A stretch of 64,000 nucleotides of DNA from a virus, in IMG/VR virus record IMGVR_UViG_3300025598_000030, positions 20,181-84,180 of that record; one strand, written 5' to 3'. Position 1 is the first letter of the stretch. Each line of letters begins with the position of its first letter. The notes under the pieces were generated by a model. That model was given only the letters and a program-made list of their open reading frames with translations. It was not told where the DNA came from and did not search any database. The translations under genes and the position numbers were made by a program. Below are positions 32,251 to 47,888 of this stretch, in pieces.

Positions 32251-34037
32251 CAAACATTGAACTCGAAAGTATGACACTCAAGAATTTTATGAGTGTCGGT
32301 AATCAAACACAATCTATAAATTTTAAAAGCGACTGTTTAACCTTAGTATTAGGAACAAATCTTGACCTCGGAGGTGAAGATACAGGTAGTCGAAATGGAA
32401 CAGGCAAGACTACTATGATTAATGGATTGAGTTATCTTTTTTTCGGAGAGGCATTATCTCGAATTAAGAAAGAAAACTTAATTAACAAAACTAACGGCAA
32501 GAATTTGTTAGCTACTGGATCATTTAAAATCAACGGTGTTCAATATAGGATCGAACGTGGCCGAAAGCCAACATTTCTTAAACTTTATATTAACGATAAA
32601 GAACATGTTGGCCGAGATAATGAAGAATCTCAAGGCGATAGTAGAGAAACTCAAAAATATATAGAAAATCTAGTCGGTATGAGTCATACTATGTTTAAAC
32701 ATATTGTTGCTCTCAATACCTACACCGAGCCATTCCTTAGTTTAAAAGCTGCTGATCAGCGCGAAGTTATCGAAGAGCTTATCGGTAGTACAATGTTAAG
32801 TACTAAAGCCGAATCATTGAGATTGTTAATTAAGGAAACTAAAGATGCTATCACTACTGAACAAATAAAAATTGATAGTGTTAAAAATGCTAATGAGGGT
32901 ATACAACGCAGTATCAATTCATTAATTGCAAAGCGTGACTTATGGAACAAAAAGCAAGAAAAGGATCTTGAAGATTATGCTGCAGCGATTGCCGAATTAG
33001 AAAGTTTGGATATTTCTGCGGAACTCCAATTACATAACGATTTAAAAGTATGGAAAGATAATAATACTCAGTTACAGAATTTGAAGAAGCAAAAAGCTGG
33101 TTCGGATTCGTCATTGATACAAGCTGATAGAAATGTCAAAAGATATACTAATGAATTAGAAAAATTAGCAGACAATAAGTGCCCTCAATGTGATCAAGAT
33201 TTGCATAATGATACACATGTCACTTTAATTGCCAATACAGAGAAAAATTTATCTGATGCTGTTGATTATTATAATACTGTAAAGAGCAATATCGATGAAT
33301 TAACTTTGCAAATTAATGCAATCGGTGATATCGGAGTATGTCCTAAGACCTTTTATTCTACTGAGGCAGAAGCGTTAGGACATCAAAATCAATTAATGAA
33401 TTTAGAGAAAGCATTAATTGATTGTAGTAATCAGGTAAATCCATATACAGATCAAATTGAAGAGCTAGAAAAAACTGCCTTACAGTCTATTTCTTGGGAT
33501 AAGATCAATGAATTAACGAAATTAAAAGAGCATCAAGACTTTTTACTTAAACTATTAACTAACAAGGATAGTTTTATCCGTAAAAAGATTATCGATCAAA
33601 ATCTTGCACATCTTAATCATAGACTTAGCTATTATTTGGATAGATTGAAACTTCCGCATTTAGTTAAATTTAAAAATGATTTAGAAGTAGAGATTACAGA
33701 TTTTGGTAAAGACCTAGACTTCGACAATTTATCTAGAGGCGAACGTAATAGACTTATTTTAAGTATGAGTTTTGCTTTTAGAGATGTTTGGGAAAGTCTA
33801 TACCAAAGCGTTAACTTGTTATTTGTCGACGAGTTAATGGATTCGGGAATGGACTCTGCCGGTGTTGAAGCAGGACTAAGACTGTTAAAACAAATGGCTA
33901 GAGAAGGTGGTAAAAACATTTACTTGATTTCTCATAAAGATGAACTGGTTAGTAGAGTTGACAGTATCTTAAGGGTAGTTAAAGAAAATGGATTTACTTC
34001 TTATTCAAATTCAACCGAGCCAGTAGGACTATTATGA
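32247..34037 (+). CDS. Recombination ATPase, gp46/SbcC/Rad50 family
   Basis: Walker A NGTGKTT, coiled coil with CPQC zinc hook, LSRGE signature, LLFVDE Walker B and ISH. The ATG at 32247 overlaps the gp47 stop (ATGA). Confidence 0.93.
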   Translation: MTNIELESMTLKNFMSVGNQTQSINFKSDCLTLVLGTNLDLGGEDTGSRNGTGKTTMINGLSYLFFGEALSRIKKENLINKTNGKNLLATGSFKINGVQYRIERGRKPTFLKLYINDKEHVGRDNEESQGDSRETQKYIENLVGMSHTMFKHIVALNTYTEPFLSLKAADQREVIEELIGSTMLSTKAESLRLLIKETKDAITTEQIKIDSVKNANEGIQRSINSLIAKRDLWNKKQEKDLEDYAAAIAELESLDISAELQLHNDLKVWKDNNTQLQNLKKQKAGSDSSLIQADRNVKRYTNELEKLADNKCPQCDQDLHNDTHVTLIANTEKNLSDAVDYYNTVKSNIDELTLQINAIGDIGVCPKTFYSTEAEALGHQNQLMNLEKALIDCSNQVNPYTDQIEELEKTALQSISWDKINELTKLKEHQDFLLKLLTNKDSFIRKKIIDQNLAHLNHRLSYYLDRLKLPHLVKFKNDLEVEITDFGKDLDFDNLSRGERNRLILSMSFAFRDVWESLYQSVNLLFVDELMDSGMDSAGVEAGLRLLKQMAREGGKNIYLISHKDELVSRVDSILRVVKENGFTSYSNSTEPVGLL

Positions 34038-34339
34038 TAAACAAGTATATAGAATTACATGAAAAATTTATGGAATTACTCGCAGAGTATCATAATAATC
34101 ACATTTATTTTATAAGGAAGCCGAATACTTATACGTTGCGATTAGTTGCAAAAACGATGAGAGAGCTAAAAAGGCTCACTCGTGAAATGAAAGTTAACAA
34201 CGTAGAACTTAGTCGTACTTTATTAGAAGAAAAAAGAAAAAGTGTGATAGAAAATAAAATACAAAAGGAGATGAGGAAAAATGAGCGACTTAAACGAATC
34301 AACAGTCAATACGACGGAACAGATGGTAACAACACTTAA
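34034..34339 (+). CDS. Small basic helical protein, possible diverged paralogue of the next gene
   Basis: ATGA-coupled to gp46; residue register similar to 34281..34496. Confidence 0.55.
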   Translation: MINKYIELHEKFMELLAEYHNNHIYFIRKPNTYTLRLVAKTMRELKRLTREMKVNNVELSRTLLEEKRKSVIENKIQKEMRKNERLKRINSQYDGTDGNNT

Positions 34340-34496
34340 GACATATGTAGATGAAAATAGTAAGTTTATAAATGGAAATTCAGCGGCAGGAACCCGTGCA
34401 CGTAAGGCGTTAGCCGAACTTGGCAAACTAGTAAAAGCTCGACGTAATGAAATTACTGCCGAAAAGAATGCACGTAAAATTAATAAAGTAAATTAA
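34281..34496 (+). CDS. Histone H1-like (Hc1-family) small DNA-binding protein
   Basis: GNSAAGTRARKALAELGKL motif; Shine-Dalgarno-like GAGG upstream. Confidence 0.7.
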   Translation: MSDLNESTVNTTEQMVTTLKTYVDENSKFINGNSAAGTRARKALAELGKLVKARRNEITAEKNARKINKVN

Positions 34497-34499
34497 TTA

Positions 34500-35453
34500 A
34501 TGAAAGTACTATTTCACACCCATACTCCTTGTTATTTAGGAACGACCGTTTCTGTAATGAACTATGCAAGATATAATCAAGAAGTATTAGGTAATGAGAG
34601 CATTATTTGCTATAATCATGATTTTAAGGGAGAAATGATCAATGGTAACCTTGATAAAGATGTGCTAAAAAAATGGACTGATATATGTGAAGTTAGAAGC
34701 ACCACTGATGGAAACTATAATGATGTCTGTAAAGATGTCGATGTTGCATATTTTCAAAGAAGTGGCGAGCCAGAACCATTACCGAATACTGCTAGAACTG
34801 CTATTCATGCTGTTTTTCAACTTAACACCCCACATGGTGATCGATATGCATATATTTCGGAATGGTTATCTAAAAAAGTAACCGGCGGTGTTGCACCTTG
34901 GGTTCCATATATAGTGCAGATGCCGAAGCCTAATCAAGATATGAGAGAATTTTTCGGTATTCCTAAAGATAAAATCATTATCGGTAGATTAGGAAGTTGG
35001 AATATTTTTGTCGACGGAATGGAATGGGCATGTCAAGCTATTGTTAATATTGTAAACAAACGGAATGATATTGTTTTCCTATTAGTCAATACTAAAAAGT
35101 TTTACGAACATCCTAATATCATTTATGTAAATGGGATTGCAGATGAACAAATAAAATCTAATTTTATAAACACATGTGATGCAATGATACACTCTAGATG
35201 GCAAGGAGAAAGTTTCGGAATGGCTATCTGCGAATTTCTATTTCATAATAAGCCAGTACTATCATGGAACGGAGGAGTCGATCAGCATCATATCGATCTT
35301 CTAAAAGATACCGGATTATTGTATAATAGCACCGCTGATTTAGAGAATAAATTAGATAATATTAAATCGTTTAATGGCGATTATCATAAAATTGTCGAAA
35401 AATTTAATCCTAATAATGTAATGCAGCAGTTTAAATCAGTATTTTTAGATTGA
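34500..35453 (+). CDS. Glycosyltransferase, GT-B fold (GT4/group 1-like)
   Basis: CDAMIHSRWQGESFGMAICEF contains the E-x7-E motif; also REFFGIPKD...IGRLG. Confidence 0.85.
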   Translation: MKVLFHTHTPCYLGTTVSVMNYARYNQEVLGNESIICYNHDFKGEMINGNLDKDVLKKWTDICEVRSTTDGNYNDVCKDVDVAYFQRSGEPEPLPNTARTAIHAVFQLNTPHGDRYAYISEWLSKKVTGGVAPWVPYIVQMPKPNQDMREFFGIPKDKIIIGRLGSWNIFVDGMEWACQAIVNIVNKRNDIVFLLVNTKKFYEHPNIIYVNGIADEQIKSNFINTCDAMIHSRWQGESFGMAICEFLFHNKPVLSWNGGVDQHHIDLLKDTGLLYNSTADLENKLDNIKSFNGDYHKIVEKFNPNNVMQQFKSVFLD

Positions 35454-35878
35454 TGACTTGGTTCTATCAAGGACAAATAGTTACTGAACTTCCTGAGACC
35501 TGTGTTGGTTTTATATATCTTATTACTAACACTATCTCAGGACGTATGTATATTGGCAAAAAACTGGCAAAATTTTCAAAAACAAAATATAAAACAGTTA
35601 AACTTAAAAACGGCAAAAAGAAACGTAAAAAAATCAAAGGCACAATAGAATCAGATTGGCAAACATATTACGGTTCCAGTGATGAACTTAATCGAGATAT
35701 AGAAAAATTAGGCAAAGAAAACTTTCAAAGAGAAATATTACATTATTGTAATAGCAAGGCACAAACTTCATACTTAGAAGCAAAAGAACAATTTGACCGG
35801 CGCGTGTTAGAATCCACTGAATATTACAATGGTCATATACGTGTTAGAGTCCACGGCTCACATATACTCAAAAAATAA
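35453..35878 (+). CDS. Stand-alone GIY-YIG family endonuclease (141 aa)
   Basis: GFIYLITN...MYIGKK, YYGSS, FQREIL, E...YYN motifs; ATG overlaps the glycosyltransferase stop (TGATG). Confidence 0.85.
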   Translation: MTWFYQGQIVTELPETCVGFIYLITNTISGRMYIGKKLAKFSKTKYKTVKLKNGKKKRKKIKGTIESDWQTYYGSSDELNRDIEKLGKENFQREILHYCNSKAQTSYLEAKEQFDRRVLESTEYYNGHIRVRVHGSHILKK

Positions 35879-35885
35879 GGCAAAA

Positions 35886-36245
35886 TAAGCAGTAAGGCTA
35901 GCATCGGCTGATATCGGATGCCCATGATAACCACACGAAAGTGATGGGGACGGAAGACTCTGCGCTGCACAGAGGACTCAACTACTATCCTTAACAGGAC
36001 GAGGATCGCGAATTGCTGCGGTTTAGTTGCTTAAGAAAAGAATTCAGGCACAAAGAAGGGAGAAAAACCCTACGTTGTTACATAAGACTAGCGTTTGTGT
36101 AATAGCCGCCGTCATATAAAGACGCTGCTCGAGGTACCGGATGACCGCCTCTGTAATGCAGTAACGCTAGTGGCTGTGATACTCAGATAATCTACAGTTT
36201 TTTGCCCGGCAACGGGCAAAGCATGGCTGCTTTATCTAGATAATC
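35886..36245 (+). ncRNA. Candidate large structured non-coding RNA (family not recognised)
   Basis: GC-enriched gap with no credible ORF. It holds many stems, GAAA and GCAA tetraloops, G-U pairs favouring the plus strand, a long-range closing helix (35886-96 with 36022-33) and a 9-bp loop/distal complementarity (36087-95 with 36163-71). Confidence 0.65.
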
Positions 36246-36261
36246 ATTAAAAAAAAGAAAA

Positions 36262-36309
36262 TGCTTCGAGCTGATAAGCGAAGAAGCAGGTGAGCTCTTG
36301 CTCACCTTT
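36262..36309 (+). terminator. Tandem hairpins ending the non-coding element (terminator or DNA hairpins)
   Basis: TGCTTC...GAAGCA (36262-88), then the perfect AGGTGAGC-TCTT-GCTCACCT (36288-307). The T tail is short. Confidence 0.45.
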
Positions 36310-36312
36310 CGC

Positions 36313-36319
36313 ATAAATA
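36313..36319 (+). promoter_or_regulatory. Putative late promoter ATAAATA
   Basis: Motif 21 nt upstream of ATG 36341. Confidence 0.55.
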
Positions 36320-36340
36320 AATTATAGTGTGGAAAAATAA

Positions 36341-37489
36341 ATGAGATTAACTGATGTATTATCGAAAAATGAGTTAAGAACTTTAAGAGAAGCAGATAAT
36401 GCGCTAGTACCTGCAGGTGGAAGAAAAATAACAGGTGGAGCAATAGTACCTGCAAATAAAGCAAATGATCCTCGTTCCGGAGAATTCCTTGGAGGAAGTT
36501 CTACAAATCCATCAGGCAATCAAAGTAATATGCAGTATCAAGTGCCTAATACTCAGAATCCTAACGGAATTAATCCGGCTAACTGGTTTAAACCTCAAAA
36601 TCCTAATGCTGTAAAGATTAATCAAACTCCACCACCTGGTCAAACAACTCAAGCAGGTCCTACTGGGGCAACTCCACCACCTGGTCAAACAACTCAAGCA
36701 GGTCCTACTGGGGCAACAACAACTCCGAATACGCCAACAGGAATTACAGGGCCTGCGGGAACAACCCCACCGCCGCCTGGTCAAACAACTCAGCCTGCTA
36801 CAACTACAGCAGCAAATTCTGCAGCAGGACTTAATATGCCAAAAAGTGGGATTATGTCTAAAGCTGTTGGCAAAATTGCTACCGGTCTTGGAAAAGCAGT
36901 CGGAGGAGTTCAAGGTGCTGCTCAAGGTGCTAAATTAGCATTTAATCGAGGACAAAGTGCTGCGAGTGCTGCTGCAACTAGAAATGTTGCTCAAGCAGGT
37001 GGAATGAGTCCTGGTCAAATACGTTCAGCGCTTAATACACCGAAAGGATCAGCAACTCCTGGAGGTACTGCACCTAGTGCTAGTGGTACTAGAGGCGCAG
37101 CTGGTACAGCAGGAATAGGTAGTGGCGGAAGAGGATCTGGTGCTGCAGGTGCTGCAAGCGCCGGAGGTGCTTCAACTAATACTAGAACTGCCGGTACATC
37201 TGGTCCAGCAGGACGTAGCCCATTTCCGAATTTAGTAGGACAAGATTTTGATAGCACACACAATGTACCAGTCACTGCTGCAGGCGCTGCAAAATGGAAT
37301 GCAGAAAAAACTAAAACTCAACAAAACCTTGATTGGTTTACTCAAAAAGAAACTGCTGCTACTAGAGCAGGATATTTGCCGAATAAAAACACAGGAGTAT
37401 GGACAGCACCGGCAGCTTCTGGAACACAACCTACTGCCGAATCGGTAGAAGACATAATTAGATTAGCTAAACAACTAGCGGCTCGTTAA
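36341..37489 (+). CDS. Gly/Ala/Thr/Pro-rich low-complexity protein, possible internal head protein (382 aa)
   Basis: Late promoter motif upstream; N-terminal LREA and C-terminal ESVEDIIRLAK; largely disordered composition. Confidence 0.65.
   Translation: MRLTDVLSKNELRTLREADNALVPAGGRKITGGAIVPANKANDPRSGEFLGGSSTNPSGNQSNMQYQVPNTQNPNGINPANWFKPQNPNAVKINQTPPPGQTTQAGPTGATPPPGQTTQAGPTGATTTPNTPTGITGPAGTTPPPPGQTTQPATTTAANSAAGLNMPKSGIMSKAVGKIATGLGKAVGGVQGAAQGAKLAFNRGQSAASAAATRNVAQAGGMSPGQIRSALNTPKGSATPGGTAPSASGTRGAAGTAGIGSGGRGSGAAGAASAGGASTNTRTAGTSGPAGRSPFPNLVGQDFDSTHNVPVTAAGAAKWNAEKTKTQQNLDWFTQKETAATRAGYLPNKNTGVWTAPAASGTQPTAESVEDIIRLAKQLAAR
36626..36715 (+). repeat. 45-bp tandem repeat x2 (TPPPGQTTQAGPTGA)
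   Basis: Identical copies start at 36626 and 36671; a degenerate third copy lies near 36764. Confidence 0.9.
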
Positions 37490-37704
37490 AAGAACGGCAT
37501 CCCGCTTTTTTGAGTCGTTTCTAGATTAGATTCTATAATGTTACCGATAATTTTTCGATCATCTATATCCATATTATAAGCTTCGGAAATAGTAACACCT
37601 CCTCTCATAAACCAACATATCTTATATAGTTCATCTTTAAGGGCTTTTGAATCATTTTCCATATCTAGAACCAGTTGGTTTATCTCTTCTAGATCAAGAG
37701 ACAA
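37486..37704 (-). CDS. gp51-like baseplate hub / tail assembly protein; possibly reached by -1 frameshift
   Basis: ELYKICWFMRGGVTISEAYNMDIDDRKII pattern; TTG start with no clear Shine-Dalgarno; lies in the -1 frame of the upstream gene. Confidence 0.6.
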   Translation of the reverse strand: MSLDLEEINQLVLDMENDSKALKDELYKICWFMRGGVTISEAYNMDIDDRKIIGNIIESNLETTQKSGMPFF

Positions 37705-37709
37705 AAGCC

Positions 37710-38570
37710 TTATCCGAAAAAAGTTGAAGGATCGAATGTTAATGGAACTTCAACTTCCTCTGCAGAGCCAGCAGCAACCATTTCATCAGTGGCTTTAACA
37801 CGTAATGGCTTAATCGCAATATCATCTTTAAGCTTATCTAGATGATTTTTCACAGCATTGAAGATATTTTTATCGCAATTTTGCATAAATTCTGAAATAA
37901 ATTCACGTTCTGTTACAGAACCTGCAGTAGTATCAATACGATATATAGTATTTGATACTAGATCTAAAGTCATTTTTGTTAATTTATTGAAACTGTCCGC
38001 AAATAATTCTAATTTTTTATCTTCATCTATAGCTTTATCGTTAACTAAATTAATTATTCGTTGAGTTTCAAAGGATTCTGCACTAGCTTTTGATAGTTCT
38101 CTATAATTTAAAGGTCTTACATATATAACGAGATTAGAAGCTATTTCGATTCTTTCGTCCCATGCAGGCGCAGACACTAATTGTGCAAGAATATCTTTAA
38201 GATCTATACCGTATGTAGCATCTACGCCTTTAACTGTAACAGTTGTATCCATAAATTCGCCATAAGTTGCTAGCCTGATTGCAATTAATATAGCATCAAT
38301 GTCTGTCTGAGGACATTGCCACCCATCGAGTATGTTAGGAACACAGCTTTGAATCACATCAGCAACTGCTTGCCCATTAAGTAATGCATCTGGAGTTTTT
38401 AAAATCAACTCATCTCTAGCAGTCATAGAATATACAGGATATTCGTTTGTAGGGGTACGTTGCAAAGACCCGTCGGGCCAATACTTTCCTTGACTAGGTA
38501 AAGTAATATAAATCTTAGGTTGTCTCATTAATCCTAATAATGGATTAGTTTTTTGTGGAGGAATCTGCAT
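37710..38570 (-). CDS. Baseplate hub assembly chaperone, gp26-like (286 aa)
   Basis: PKIYITLPSQG, MTARDELILK and DIDAILIAIRLATYGE motifs; ends in FFG. Confidence 0.8.
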   Translation of the reverse strand: MQIPPQKTNPLLGLMRQPKIYITLPSQGKYWPDGSLQRTPTNEYPVYSMTARDELILKTPDALLNGQAVADVIQSCVPNILDGWQCPQTDIDAILIAIRLATYGEFMDTTVTVKGVDATYGIDLKDILAQLVSAPAWDERIEIASNLVIYVRPLNYRELSKASAESFETQRIINLVNDKAIDEDKKLELFADSFNKLTKMTLDLVSNTIYRIDTTAGSVTEREFISEFMQNCDKNIFNAVKNHLDKLKDDIAIKPLRVKATDEMVAAGSAEEVEVPLTFDPSTFFG

Positions 38571-47132: not shown

Positions 47133-47200
47133 ATAAATATTATCAGTTCGCTCATAAAGAGAGTTTATGCAGTACCCACTGCGTAGATCCTAGAACGATC
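47133..47200 (+). promoter_or_regulatory. Late promoter (ATAAATA) followed by a structured 5' leader
   Basis: ATAAATA at 47133-39; GTTC/GAAC closing stem, CTC-ATAAA-GAG and TTTATGCAGT-ACCC-ACTGCGTAGA hairpins. Confidence 0.55.
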
Positions 47201-47219
47201 TTAATATAAGGAGAAACAA

Positions 47220-47888
47220 ATGGGACGTCCAATTAAAAAGAGATTTTTTGCAGGAACCGCTGTAGTTGCTGATACTGCAGGTATGGGAGTTGTTACGCCA
47301 AACGGTGTAACTATTGTTACTAGCGGAACGAATTATTCTTCTGCACCTACAGTTGTATTCAGCCAACCAGATATATTCGGCGGCACAGTTGCTACTGGTC
47401 ACGTTACTGTTAGCGGCGGAAACATTACTAGTTTTGTAGTAGATAATGGGGGATCCGGATATATGTCCGATCCTGCAATTGCATTAACAAACACTACAGG
47501 AACCGGCGCAACATTTACAGTTGCACTTGCTCCGATTAGTAATACAGGTAAAATTACGGTAACTGCTTACTTACCGTCACCTAAAGGATTAAGTTCTAAA
47601 ACTTCAAATATTCTAAAACAAGAATCAAGTCATCGTTATCTAGTACAAAATGCAGACGGCGACGGACAATGCAAGTTAGTTGCTTCGGGTAGTTTGACTG
47701 CAGGCCAAATGAATCTTGTTGCTACTGATAGTGCAGGTGGTACTTACTATGTAACGAAGTTGACTAGCCGTAAAGCTTATCTAACATCGATTAATGGTTC
47801 GCAATTTACTAACGGTGTTGCATCATGGTTGCTTGCTAGTGCAGGATCACCACAAGCTAATGTTAGTGTAACAATTCCTGTTTCTTAA
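47220..47888 (+). CDS. Virion structural protein, possible head decoration (222 aa)
   Basis: Follows the capsid gene with its own promoter, AAGGAG Shine-Dalgarno and terminator; GTNYSSAPTV and GGSGYMSDP beta motifs. Confidence 0.6.
   Translation: MGRPIKKRFFAGTAVVADTAGMGVVTPNGVTIVTSGTNYSSAPTVVFSQPDIFGGTVATGHVTVSGGNITSFVVDNGGSGYMSDPAIALTNTTGTGATFTVALAPISNTGKITVTAYLPSPKGLSSKTSNILKQESSHRYLVQNADGDGQCKLVASGSLTAGQMNLVATDSAGGTYYVTKLTSRKAYLTSINGSQFTNGVASWLLASAGSPQANVSVTIPVS

What the first reader, a model, noticed from the sequence alone, without database searches (positions are those of the whole stretch)
35453..36309. Minimal GIY-YIG nuclease gene followed immediately by an unrecognised, ornate ~360-nt structured RNA
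Seen in sequence: 7 nt after the nuclease stop, a GC-enriched non-coding tract begins in an otherwise tightly packed genome, and it is covered by stems. A long-range helix TAAGCAG-TAAG (35886-96) / TTTA-G-TTGCTTA (36022-33) encloses GCATC/GATGC, CCAT..CAC-GAAA-GTG-ATGG, CTCTG/CAGAG (35958-74) and ATCCT/AGGAT. Next comes a 13-bp G-U-rich hairpin (36074-106) whose loop region ACTAGCGTT is exactly complementary to AACGCTAGT (36163-71), suggesting a pseudoknot. Further stems are CGTC/GACG, GAGGT..CGG-ATGA-CCG..CCTC and TTTGCCCG-GCAA-CGGGCAAA (36201-20) inside AGATAA/TTATCT. GNRA loops and G-U pairs point to a plus-strand RNA. Known: GIY-YIG homing endonucleases such as I-TevI carry C-terminal DNA-binding modules; this 141-aa protein has only the catalytic domain plus a Lys-rich insertion. 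Inference: the RNA may be the nuclease's partner or specificity factor, a replication-primer RNA, or a new ribozyme. I do not recognise it as tRNA, tmRNA, RNase P or a group I/II intron.
Basis: partly seen in the sequence, partly recalled or inferred. Interest (0 to 1): 0.88.

Follow-up and report, generated by a model that had tools for sequence, protein, structure and literature searches.

The report
Full-length Polynucleobacter-1 twin-box phage RNA
The gene-free 430 bases behind a small nuclease gene of this uncultured freshwater T4-like phage encode a real, knotted non-coding RNA whose first third is an orphan motif catalogued in 2010, and whose uncatalogued rest shows one short word twice for a reader that is still unknown.

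Summary
The structured tract is real. Window 35896-36032 is a full-length match to Rfam RF01718, Polynucleobacter-1 (93.3 bits, cut-off 37). RF01718 covers only the first third. The next ~280 nt (36033-36309) match no Rfam family above cut-off.

The 3' part carries two 16-nt direct "twin" units. Their 7-nt word (here AGATAAT, 36185-91 and 36238-44) is identical within each RNA. It takes 11 forms and changes at least 54 times on a tree of 134 loci.

A GIY-YIG gene lies directly upstream in 93 of 99 RNA loci and is inherited vertically there. It is not an obligate partner:
- The nuclease family occurs without the RNA in 6 of 6 cultured phages examined.
- The RNA occurs behind other genes and in a bacterial genome.

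I found no complementary partner for the word, and function is unknown. This scan has met the same RNA family before on other DNA; I reuse its name "twin-box".

The parts
35450..35878 (+). GIY-YIG nuclease gene, catalytic domain only. 142 aa from TTG at 35450, or 141 aa from ATG at 35453.
   Evidence: Pfam PF19835 SegE_GIY-YIG, E = 1.5e-33, residues 4-130 on model 1-123. PHROG phrog_447, E = 9.7e-38.
35879..36309 (+). The whole RNA gene as I read it, about 430 nt: 5' domain, pseudoknotted middle domain, twin-box module and trailing hairpins.
   Evidence: No plus-strand ORF. GC 0.44-0.47. Fold z = -3.1. Conserved as a unit in related loci. The ends are inferred from conservation, not mapped.
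35896..36032 (+). 5' domain: Rfam RF01718, Polynucleobacter-1 RNA.
   Evidence: 93.3 bits against a gathering score of 37, model positions 1-141 of 141, E = 1e-18.
36074..36106 (+). Hairpin whose loop (36087-36095) forms the 5' strand of the pseudoknot.
   Evidence: 11 of 11 pairs have changes on both sides; 87.5% of cells are paired (helix 1).
36163..36171 (+). 3' strand of the pseudoknot, AACGCTAGT, pairing with 36087-36095.
   Evidence: 8 of 9 pairs have changes on both sides; 86.4% of cells are paired (helix 2). Examples: TTAGCG/CGCTAA, TTAGTG/CACTAA, ATAGCA/TGCTAT, TTTACG/CGTAAG.
36125..36161 (+). Helix CTGC/GCAG enclosing helix GAGG/CCTC. Inside lies the invariant core GGTACCGGATGACCGCC (36133-36149).
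   Evidence: Outer helix: 4 of 4 pairs covary, 93% of cells paired. Inner helix: 2 of 4 pairs covary. 14 alignment columns are invariant in 63 sequences, most of them in this core. All 63 unique RNAs carry the core.
36179..36194 (+). Twin unit 1: ATA-CTC-AGATAAT-CTA. The word AGATAAT lies at 36185-36191.
   Evidence: same word as in unit 2; the unit runs from -6 to +3 around the word.
36201..36220 (+). Hairpin TTTGCCCG-GCAA-CGGGCAAA between the twin units.
   Evidence: A perfect 7-bp hairpin in 141 of 142 unique loci, with compensatory variants: CTTTGCC/GGCAAAG, CTTAGCC/GGCTAAG, CTTCGCC/GGCGAAG, TCTCCCG/CGGGAGA.
36232..36247 (+). Twin unit 2: TTA-TCT-AGATAAT-CAT. The word AGATAAT lies at 36238-36244.
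36263..36309 (+). Two trailing hairpins. The second (36288-36306, followed by TTT) looks like a terminator and is the probable 3' end.
   Evidence: Read from the sequence. Equivalent hairpins are visible in other loci. The simple terminator scan did not call it, so the 3' end is an inference.

Best explanation
Window 35879-36309 (+) encodes a stand-alone structured non-coding RNA of about 430 nt. It is the full-length form of the Polynucleobacter-1 motif.

Probable transcription (inferred): it is transcribed with, or just behind, the GIY-YIG gene. It lies at the end of the plus-strand replication and recombination gene block and ends at a terminator-like hairpin that faces the convergent baseplate genes.

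Architecture (shown):
- a 5' domain that is RF01718;
- a pseudoknotted middle domain built round an invariant GGUAC...ACCGCC core;
- a module that displays the same 16-nt unit twice, on either side of a GC-rich hairpin.

Two things point that way. The word changes often and always in both copies. The four fixed differences between the copies are all transitions, so a single G/U-containing strand (for this window 5'-G-AUUAUCU-GGG-UA-3') could pair with both.

The nuclease gene is a long-standing, vertically inherited neighbour in this phage group, and probably shares the transcript. It is not an obligate partner.
For: Real RNA of a known family:
- RF01718 scores 93.3 bits.
- All 11 loci found with a 5'-domain pattern carry RF01718 and share the downstream 300 nt.

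One unit, not two:
- Of 119 loci found with a 3'-domain pattern, 109 have the 5' domain at the right distance. Six are cut by the locus end and 4 lack it.

Structure, counted on 63 unique sequences:

| Measure | Observed | Shuffled |
|---|---|---|
| Cells paired | 87.2% | 71.0% |
| Cells changed on both sides | 348 | 104 |
| Covariation score | 0.460 | 0.173 |

- 0 of 500 shuffles reached the observed values for these three measures.
- Slid controls reached at most 47.6% paired and a score of at most 0.095.

Twin units:
- The 7-nt word is identical in both copies in 58 of 63 unique RNAs, with 9 different words.
- In a wider set, a strict pattern found identity in 133 of 162 unique loci. Nearly all the rest were identical on inspection.
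- 11 words and at least 54 changes on a tree of 134 loci built with the words masked.
- Flanks -6 to -4 and +2 to +3 are mostly the same in both copies. Positions -3 to -1 and +1 differ by transitions only. Beyond that, transversions dominate.
- The twins persist in divergent RNAs that RF01718 misses (L024, L049, L070) and in a bacterial copy (L207).

Not a leader:
- In 15 of 52 loci the RNA fills the whole 447-516 nt between the nuclease stop and the convergent gene.

Nuclease as neighbour:
- GIY-YIG and gp46-like protein distances correlate: Spearman 0.835, 0 of 500 permutations as high.
- The nuclease family occurs without the RNA in cultured phages.
Against: - No transcript evidence exists, and the two ends are inferred only.
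- No partner strand was found in four searches: no complement of the word inside the RNA; 95 complements in the flanking loci against 79.4 expected; 0 matches to the predicted partner in the 64-kb window; no exact match in the 3-Mb bacterial genome that holds a copy.
- A protein reader, or a reason for the identity that I have not thought of, is therefore not excluded.
- The three flank positions -3 to -1 were fixed by my own search pattern. The unselected list shows the same CTC/TCT contrast in 58 of 63.
- The helix between the two long repeats is only moderately supported: 74.5% of cells are paired.
- The tight link to a nuclease remains compatible with a functional tie. The gap is a median of 7 nt, a GIY-YIG gene lies upstream in 93 of 99 loci, and in other loci a PD-(D/E)XK nuclease takes the same place.
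Confidence: 0.55

Rival explanations
1. The conserved RNA gene is a landing site for selfish DNA enzymes. Free-standing homing nucleases (GIY-YIG, PD-(D/E)XK) and, in bacteria, an integrase settle next to it because they cut or recombine within its invariant sequence. Homing nucleases and integrases do the same at tRNA, tmRNA and rRNA genes. Under this reading the adjacency says nothing about what the RNA does.
For: - Two unrelated nuclease families take the same place directly upstream: GIY-YIG and PF24608 PDDEXK_15.
- In the Oxalobacteraceae copy a 221-aa tyrosine recombinase (PF00589, 5.8e-27) lies about 400 nt downstream on the same strand.
- In six cultured phages the GIY-YIG homologue lies in a range of genomic contexts, in some on the strand opposite to its neighbours. 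PHROG relatives are annotated as homing endonucleases.
Against: - In this phage group the nuclease is nearly fixed (93 of 99) and tracks the gp46-like protein (Spearman 0.835). That is not the patchy pattern of an active homing gene.
- It is conserved about as well as gp46: mean distance 0.21 against 0.26.
- It lacks a DNA-binding domain.
- No cleavage site is known.
Confidence: 0.2
2. The RNA is a functional partner of the upstream nuclease. It could be a guide or specificity factor whose twin words aim two protomers. It could instead be an inhibitor or antitoxin-like RNA that holds a dangerous nuclease in check.
For: - The gap between nuclease stop and RNA is a median of 7 nt, and the pair is rarely separated.
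- The link holds while other neighbours come and go.
- The GIY-YIG gene is replaced by another nuclease, not by a random gene, in the L003 and L244 groups.
- The protein has a catalytic domain only.
- The two identical, fast-changing words look like guides.
Against: - The nuclease family occurs in 387 cultured phage records. All 6 examined have only 28-148 nt, or an overlapping gene, behind the gene. None of 5 whole genomes has RF01718, and none of the 6 loci has twin units.
- The RNA occurs behind a methyltransferase-like gene and behind genes with no Pfam family. In a bacterium no co-oriented gene lies upstream of it.
- The word is not depleted from the phage's own flanking DNA.
- No target was found.
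Confidence: 0.12
3. The RNA is a cis-regulatory leader of the gene downstream of it (here the 382-aa ORF at 36341-37489). This is how I recall the 2010 catalogue classing Polynucleobacter-1.
For: - The table row in PMC2864571 reads 'y y ?' for this motif. I recall, but did not see, that the second column means cis-regulatory.
- In the window and in L010 and L012, a plus-strand ORF starts 30-60 nt after the last hairpin.
Against: - In 15 of 52 loci there is no room for any downstream plus-strand gene.
- The downstream gene, where present, is not conserved: tblastn with the window's 382-aa protein found no match in the 11 + 80 loci.
- The RNA ends in a terminator-like hairpin.
Confidence: 0.03
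4. The RNA is a ribozyme or a self-processing RNA. On this reading the twin units mark two equivalent cleavage or ligation sites.
For: It has size, a pseudoknot and an invariant 17-nt core typical of catalytic RNAs. It has two equivalent sites.
Against: No match to any ribozyme or intron family in Rfam at E up to 10. No interrupted gene. Nothing was tested directly.
Confidence: 0.05

Closest known systems
Polynucleobacter-1 RNA motif (Rfam RF01718; Weinberg et al. 2010, Genome Biol 11:R31, PMC2864571). I saw the table row only.
   Same: Window 35896-36032 matches the whole 141-position model at 93.3 bits. Habitat agrees: the paper's row says Burkholderiales and fresh water/estuary. The window's DNA is held by runs labelled freshwater metagenome (19 of the 20 listed). 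A copy lies in an Oxalobacteraceae genome.
   Different: The catalogued motif is 141 nt. The conserved RNA here is about 430 nt, with a pseudoknotted middle domain, twin units and trailing hairpins that no Rfam model covers. In 15 of 52 loci it cannot be a leader.
cow-rumen-2 RNA (Rfam RF02947)
   Same: A weak match at 36075-36170. The same blocks come in the same order: a hairpin with UAGC in its loop, AUAGCCGCC, then GGAUGACC within a short helix, then UAA (alignment).
   Different: 15.7 bits against a gathering score of 66, E = 4.6. It is not a member. The likeness is a lead to a possibly shared module and nothing more.
Large ornate phage-borne RNAs of unknown function such as GOLLD and ROOL (recalled; not searched here)
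   Same: Several hundred nucleotides, many helices and pseudoknots, carried by phages, no known function.
   Different: No sequence or model match. Twin co-varying words are not a feature that I know of in those RNAs.
T4 Seg-type free-standing GIY-YIG homing endonucleases (Pfam PF19835)
   Same: The upstream protein matches the SegE GIY-YIG domain over its full length.
   Different: It has no C-terminal DNA-binding module (142 aa). It is nearly fixed and vertically inherited in this phage group. It has one copy per genome in 387 cultured phage records.

Membership tests
Rfam RF01718 Polynucleobacter-1 | Covariance-model score at or above the curated gathering score (37 bits) over the full model | tested here: met
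   93.3 bits, model 1-141 of 141, not truncated.
Rfam RF01718 Polynucleobacter-1 | Consensus hairpins present in order | tested here: met
   The alignment to the consensus structure line shows all helices filled, with posterior probabilities mostly at the top level.
Rfam RF01718 Polynucleobacter-1 | Position as a 5' leader of a conserved downstream gene (the proposed cis-regulatory role; the column meaning is recalled) | tested here: not met
   15 of 52 loci have no room for a downstream plus-strand gene. The window's downstream protein has no homologue in the 91 loci searched.
Rfam RF02947 cow-rumen-2 | Score at or above the gathering score (66 bits) | tested here: not met
   15.7 bits, E = 4.6.
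Group I / group II introns, RNase P RNA, tmRNA, tRNA | Match to the Rfam model, or an interrupted host gene | tested here: not met
   None listed at E up to 10 in 35700-36450. The flanking ORFs are complete.
GIY-YIG nuclease superfamily (SegE-type domain) | GIY-YIG catalytic domain | tested here: met
   PF19835, 116.1 bits against a cut-off of 25, E = 1.5e-33.
Free-standing homing endonuclease | Separate DNA-binding module | tested here: not met
   The domain covers residues 4-130 of 142 and no second Pfam domain is found.
Free-standing homing endonuclease | Patchy presence among close relatives and a history that departs from the backbone | tested here: not met
   Present in 93 of 99 RNA loci. 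Distances track the gp46-like protein: Spearman 0.835, Mantel 0 of 500. At deeper range the gene does sit in varied contexts, so the test is negative only within this group.
RNA-guided nuclease system (protein with its guide RNA) | Obligate co-occurrence of the nuclease family and the RNA | tested here: not met
   6 of 6 cultured phage loci have the nuclease without the RNA. 0 of 5 genomes hold RF01718. The RNA also sits behind non-GIY genes.
RNA-guided nuclease system (protein with its guide RNA) | A variable guide segment with identifiable complementary targets | tested here: inconclusive
   A variable word exists, but no complement was found in the RNA, the loci, the window or the bacterial genome. 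The hosts are unknown.
RNA-guided nuclease system (protein with its guide RNA) | Physical binding of RNA and protein, and RNA-dependent cleavage | not testable with these tools
   Needs biochemistry.

The most novel reading that the evidence does not exclude
The twin units are two copies of a programmable guide. Each pairs, with G-U wobble, to the same roughly 13-16-nt sequence (for this phage 5'-GAUUAUCUGGGUA-3') in a host or rival-phage nucleic acid. The folded body recruits the co-transcribed small nuclease (GIY-YIG, or PD-(D/E)XK where that has replaced it), one protomer per unit. That would make an RNA-aimed nuclease of a kind not described before.
Probability: 0.04. Interest if true: 0.95.

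Novelty: new variant of a known kind. Interest (0 to 1): 0.6.

Why it matters
Polynucleobacter-1 has stood in Rfam since 2010 as a 141-nt orphan motif. My full-text searches found it named only in the 2010 catalogue and, by accession number, in two genome papers.

This window and its relatives show the motif is the head of a roughly 430-nt knotted RNA.

The RNA carries a rare kind of signal. Two copies of one short word change together again and again, which points to a specific reader and so to a testable function.

It would add a member to the small set of large, ornate phage RNAs whose roles are open. It also gives Rfam a reason to extend the family model. The finding is not unique to this window: the scan has reported the same family on other DNA.

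Tried and rejected
**Searches and tests that gave nothing**
- Cultured relatives of the RNA. blastn of 35400-36400 against 50,697 phage records found only 4 records, all matching the nuclease part.
- RNA-seq. No RNA holder was listed among the 20 runs returned, all on record as DNA, 19 of them labelled freshwater metagenome and one bioanode metagenome. I did not lay reads, since DNA contigs cannot show a transcript.
- Promoter and terminator scan of 34000-38000. Nothing was called at the RNA's ends, and counts were at shuffle level.
- Whole-RNA MAFFT alignment with RNAalifold. It was too poorly aligned to use: 731 columns and few helices. I replaced it with anchored segments A1 and A2.
- The genome contigs pattern scan was too loose. 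Only 1 of 120 loci (L207) was the RNA.

**Hunt for a partner of the twin word**
- No complement inside the RNA, G-U pairs allowed.
- Complements in the flanking loci: 95 against 79.4 expected. Only ATCATCC was raised, at 15 against 5.1.
- Predicted partner RTTRTYTGGG in the window: 0 matches, with 0.94 expected by chance.
- Predicted partner of the bacterial copy in its own genome: no exact match. There were 27 one-mismatch matches against 19 for the reversed control, and one of the 27 is the RNA gene's own opposite strand. None of the 8 places fetched lies in a tRNA gene.

**Ideas considered and dropped**
- tRNA T-arm as partner or mimic. Only some members read GUUCRACUC; the window does not.
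- Stop-codon reading of the word. It would fit U-R-A at word positions 4-6, but AGTCAAG, GAGAAA and AGCGAAA break it.
- A -10 promoter box. T6 is lost in several words.
- CsrA sites. 26 of 63 RNAs lack GGA.
- A mini CRISPR array. The 'spacer' is a conserved hairpin and the repeats differ.
- Gene conversion between the copies. The fixed transition differences lie inside the unit.
- Minimal pairs. The closest loci with different words still differ at 11% of RNA positions, so no clean two-mutation case was found.

**Sources I could not see**
I saw only the table row.
Full report
**What is in the window**

The ORF at 35450-35878 (+) is a 142-aa GIY-YIG protein. It matches Pfam SegE_GIY-YIG over the whole model (E = 1.5e-33) and PHROG phrog_447.

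Its neighbours are phage genes:
- upstream, a gp46-like SMC/AAA protein, an Hc1-like protein and a glycosyltransferase;
- downstream on the other strand, a 72-aa ORF and a T4 baseplate protein.

The window is part of an 84-kb IMG/VR virus record that CheckV rates 24% complete.

From 35879 to the next ATG at 36341 there is no plus-strand ORF of 40 aa or more. GC rises from 0.30-0.32 in the nuclease gene to 0.44-0.47 in the tract. The tract folds at -135.9 kcal/mol against -118.2 +/- 5.7 for shuffles (z = -3.1).

**Part of it is known**

Rfam's gathering-threshold scan of the whole window gives two hits:
- RF01718, Polynucleobacter-1, at 35896-36032 (+): 93.3 bits against a cut-off of 37, over the full model;
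- RF02980, freshwater-2, at 47147-47222, which is unrelated to this finding.

A permissive scan of 35700-36450 lists nothing else above its cut-off. The only suggestive weak match is cow-rumen-2 at 36075-36170 (15.7 bits, cut-off 66, E = 4.6). It shares three sequence blocks in the same order.

In the literature library the motif name occurs only in the 2010 catalogue, where I saw its table row. Its accession number occurs in two further genome papers, seen in the search listing only. A search combining the genus name, 'RNA motif', 'bacteriophage' and 'pseudoknot' returned the same single paper.

**The RNA is three times longer than the catalogued motif**

- A pattern from the 5' domain found 11 viral contigs. 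All 11 carry RF01718 at 86.9-104 bits. In all lineages the following ~300 nt are alignable with the window's.
- Of those 119, 109 have the 5' domain at the expected distance. Six are cut by the locus end. Four lack a hit, and two of these (L247, L270) are GC-rich chance matches.

**Covariation in the middle domain**

I collected 84 RNAs, of which 63 are unique and full-length, and aligned two anchored segments.

On segment 1 (A1) the named structure fares as follows:

| Measure | Observed | Shuffled |
|---|---|---|
| Cells paired | 87.2% | 71.0% |
| Cells changed on both sides | 348 | 104 |
| Covariation score | 0.460 | 0.173 |

None of 500 shuffles reached the observed values for these three measures. 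Slid controls reached at most 47.6% paired and a score of 0.095.

Per helix:

| Helix | Pairs with changes on both sides |
|---|---|
| Hairpin 36074-36106 | 11 of 11 |
| Pseudoknot 36087-95 / 36163-71 | 8 of 9 |
| CTGC/GCAG | 4 of 4 |
| GAGG/CCTC | 2 of 4 (the other 2 invariant) |
| CGTC/GACG | 0 of 4 |
| CGG/CCG | 0 of 3 |

The core GGTACCGGATGACCGCC is nearly invariant.

**Covariation in the twin module**

- The hairpin between the twin units is perfect over 7 bp in 141 of 142 unique loci, with compensatory variants.
- A helix between the long repeats is moderately supported, at 74.5% of cells paired.

**The twin units**

Two direct repeats flank that hairpin. In the window they read ATA-CTC-AGATAAT-CTA (36179-94) and TTA-TCT-AGATAAT-CAT (36232-47).

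- The 7-nt word is the same in both copies in 58 of 63 unique RNAs, with nine different words. The other five carry shorter shared words (GAGAAA, GACAT) in another register.
- In the wider set of 200 loci, a strict pattern found identity in 133 of 162 unique, complete loci.
- Of the other 29, inspection showed identical words in nearly all. The exceptions are L021, L023 and L034 (which share GACAT), L084 (GGAAAT), two loci that are not the RNA, and one cut locus.
- On a FastTree of 134 loci built with both words masked, the word takes 11 forms and changes at least 54 times. This set was chosen for identical words, so the count measures turnover, not identity.
- Flank positions -6 to -4 and +2 to +3 are mostly the same in both copies. 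Positions -3 to -1 (CTC against TCT) and +1 (G against A) differ by transitions. Beyond these positions transversions dominate. The CTC/TCT contrast was part of that script's pattern, but it also shows in the unselected list.
- Twin units also occur in three divergent RNAs that RF01718 does not detect (L024, L049, L070) and in a bacterial copy.

A single strand containing G and U at the four differing positions could pair with both units. That is an inference.

I looked for such a strand and found none, neither in the RNA, nor in the flanking loci, nor in the window, nor in the bacterial genome.

**The nuclease**

Taking the 80 best viral-contig relatives of the GIY-YIG protein (67-81% identical, out of 376 confirmed):
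- 63 have the 5' domain by nhmmer and 9 more by Rfam, making 72;
- 2 are cut within 21 nt of the gene;
- 3 carry a divergent twin-unit RNA;
- 1 (L084) keeps only the core;
- 2 have other ORFs downstream.

The loci are largely syntenic: a gp46-like gene in 75, and convergent baseplate genes in 54.

Taking the RNA as the starting point, 99 loci with enough upstream sequence were examined:

| Upstream ORF | Loci |
|---|---|
| GIY-YIG (ending a median of 7 nt before the RNA) | 92, plus L309 on inspection |
| PDDEXK_15 nuclease | 2 |
| Methyltransferase-like | 1 |
| No Pfam family | 3 |

The seven loci of the L003 group also have the PDDEXK_15 gene there.

Pairwise distances of the nuclease track those of the gp46-like protein in 45 loci: Spearman 0.835, with 0 of 500 permutations as high. 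Within this group the gene is therefore inherited with the backbone.

Outside the group:
- The family occurs once each in 387 cultured phage records, at under 60% identity.
- In Melnitz-3, P-SSM7, phiM12, Ps15, S-SRM01 and B3 the gene lies in other contexts. It is followed by coding genes after 28-148 nt, or is overlapped by one.
- None of five of these genomes holds RF01718.
- None of the six loci has twin units.

**Not a leader**

In 15 of 52 loci with the convergent 72-aa gene, the distance from the nuclease stop to that gene is 447-516 nt. The RNA fills all of it. The window's 382-aa downstream protein has no Pfam or PHROG family and no homologue in the other loci.

**A bacterial copy**

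One of 120 genome-contig pattern hits is real. It lies in an Oxalobacteraceae assembly.

- The RNA there is full-length, with twin word AGCGAAA.
- A DUF6641 gene lies divergently upstream.
- A 221-aa tyrosine recombinase lies about 400 nt downstream on the same strand.

**Verdict**

Its head is a known orphan motif, so the claim 'unrecognised' falls. The body, with its pseudoknot, invariant core and twin units, is uncatalogued. I did not find it in print.

The nuclease is a conserved neighbour and not a demonstrated partner.

I favour a stand-alone RNA that shows one short sequence twice to a base-pairing reader.

The same family has been reported several times by this scan on other DNA. I noticed the twin repeats independently before reading those notes, and I reuse their name for them.

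Noticed in passing
window 47147-47222 (+): A second Rfam hit in the window: RF02980, freshwater-2 RNA, 59.9 bits against a cut-off of 49.9.
   Followed up: no
window 35877-35885 and 36046-36056; the same places in most related loci: An AAGGCA(A)AA-like motif stands twice. One copy overlaps the nuclease stop codon, just before the 5' domain. The other lies in the linker between the 5' and middle domains. They may be processing or start sites.
   Followed up: no
L024 2921-3220, L049 2921-3210: In two loci a small ORF of about 95 aa, with a Cys-rich C-terminus, is inserted between the GIY-YIG gene and a divergent twin-unit RNA.
   Followed up: no
L024, L049, L070 (about 450 nt after the nuclease or the small ORF): A divergent RNA type that RF01718 does not detect. 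It starts alike (AAGGTTAGCGGG...), keeps the twin units (ACATGAA, GCATGAA) and the trailing hairpins, but has a different core.
   Followed up: partly
window 36341-37489 (+): A 382-aa Pro/Gly/Thr/Ala-rich low-complexity protein with tandem PPPGQTTQAGPTGAT repeats. It has no Pfam or PHROG family and no homologue in related loci.
   Followed up: no
Most related loci, just after twin unit 2 (e.g. L033, L054, L065); absent from the window: A small hairpin with a UUC(G) loop and a covarying stem: ACGC/GCGT, GTGC/GCAC, CTAC/GTAG, CATC/GATG. The window lacks it and has an A-run there instead.
   Followed up: partly
Phage records: The GIY-YIG family (phrog_447) is widely annotated as 'NAD synthetase' in cultured T4-like phages. 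Next to the Pfam GIY-YIG match, this looks like a propagated misannotation.
   Followed up: no
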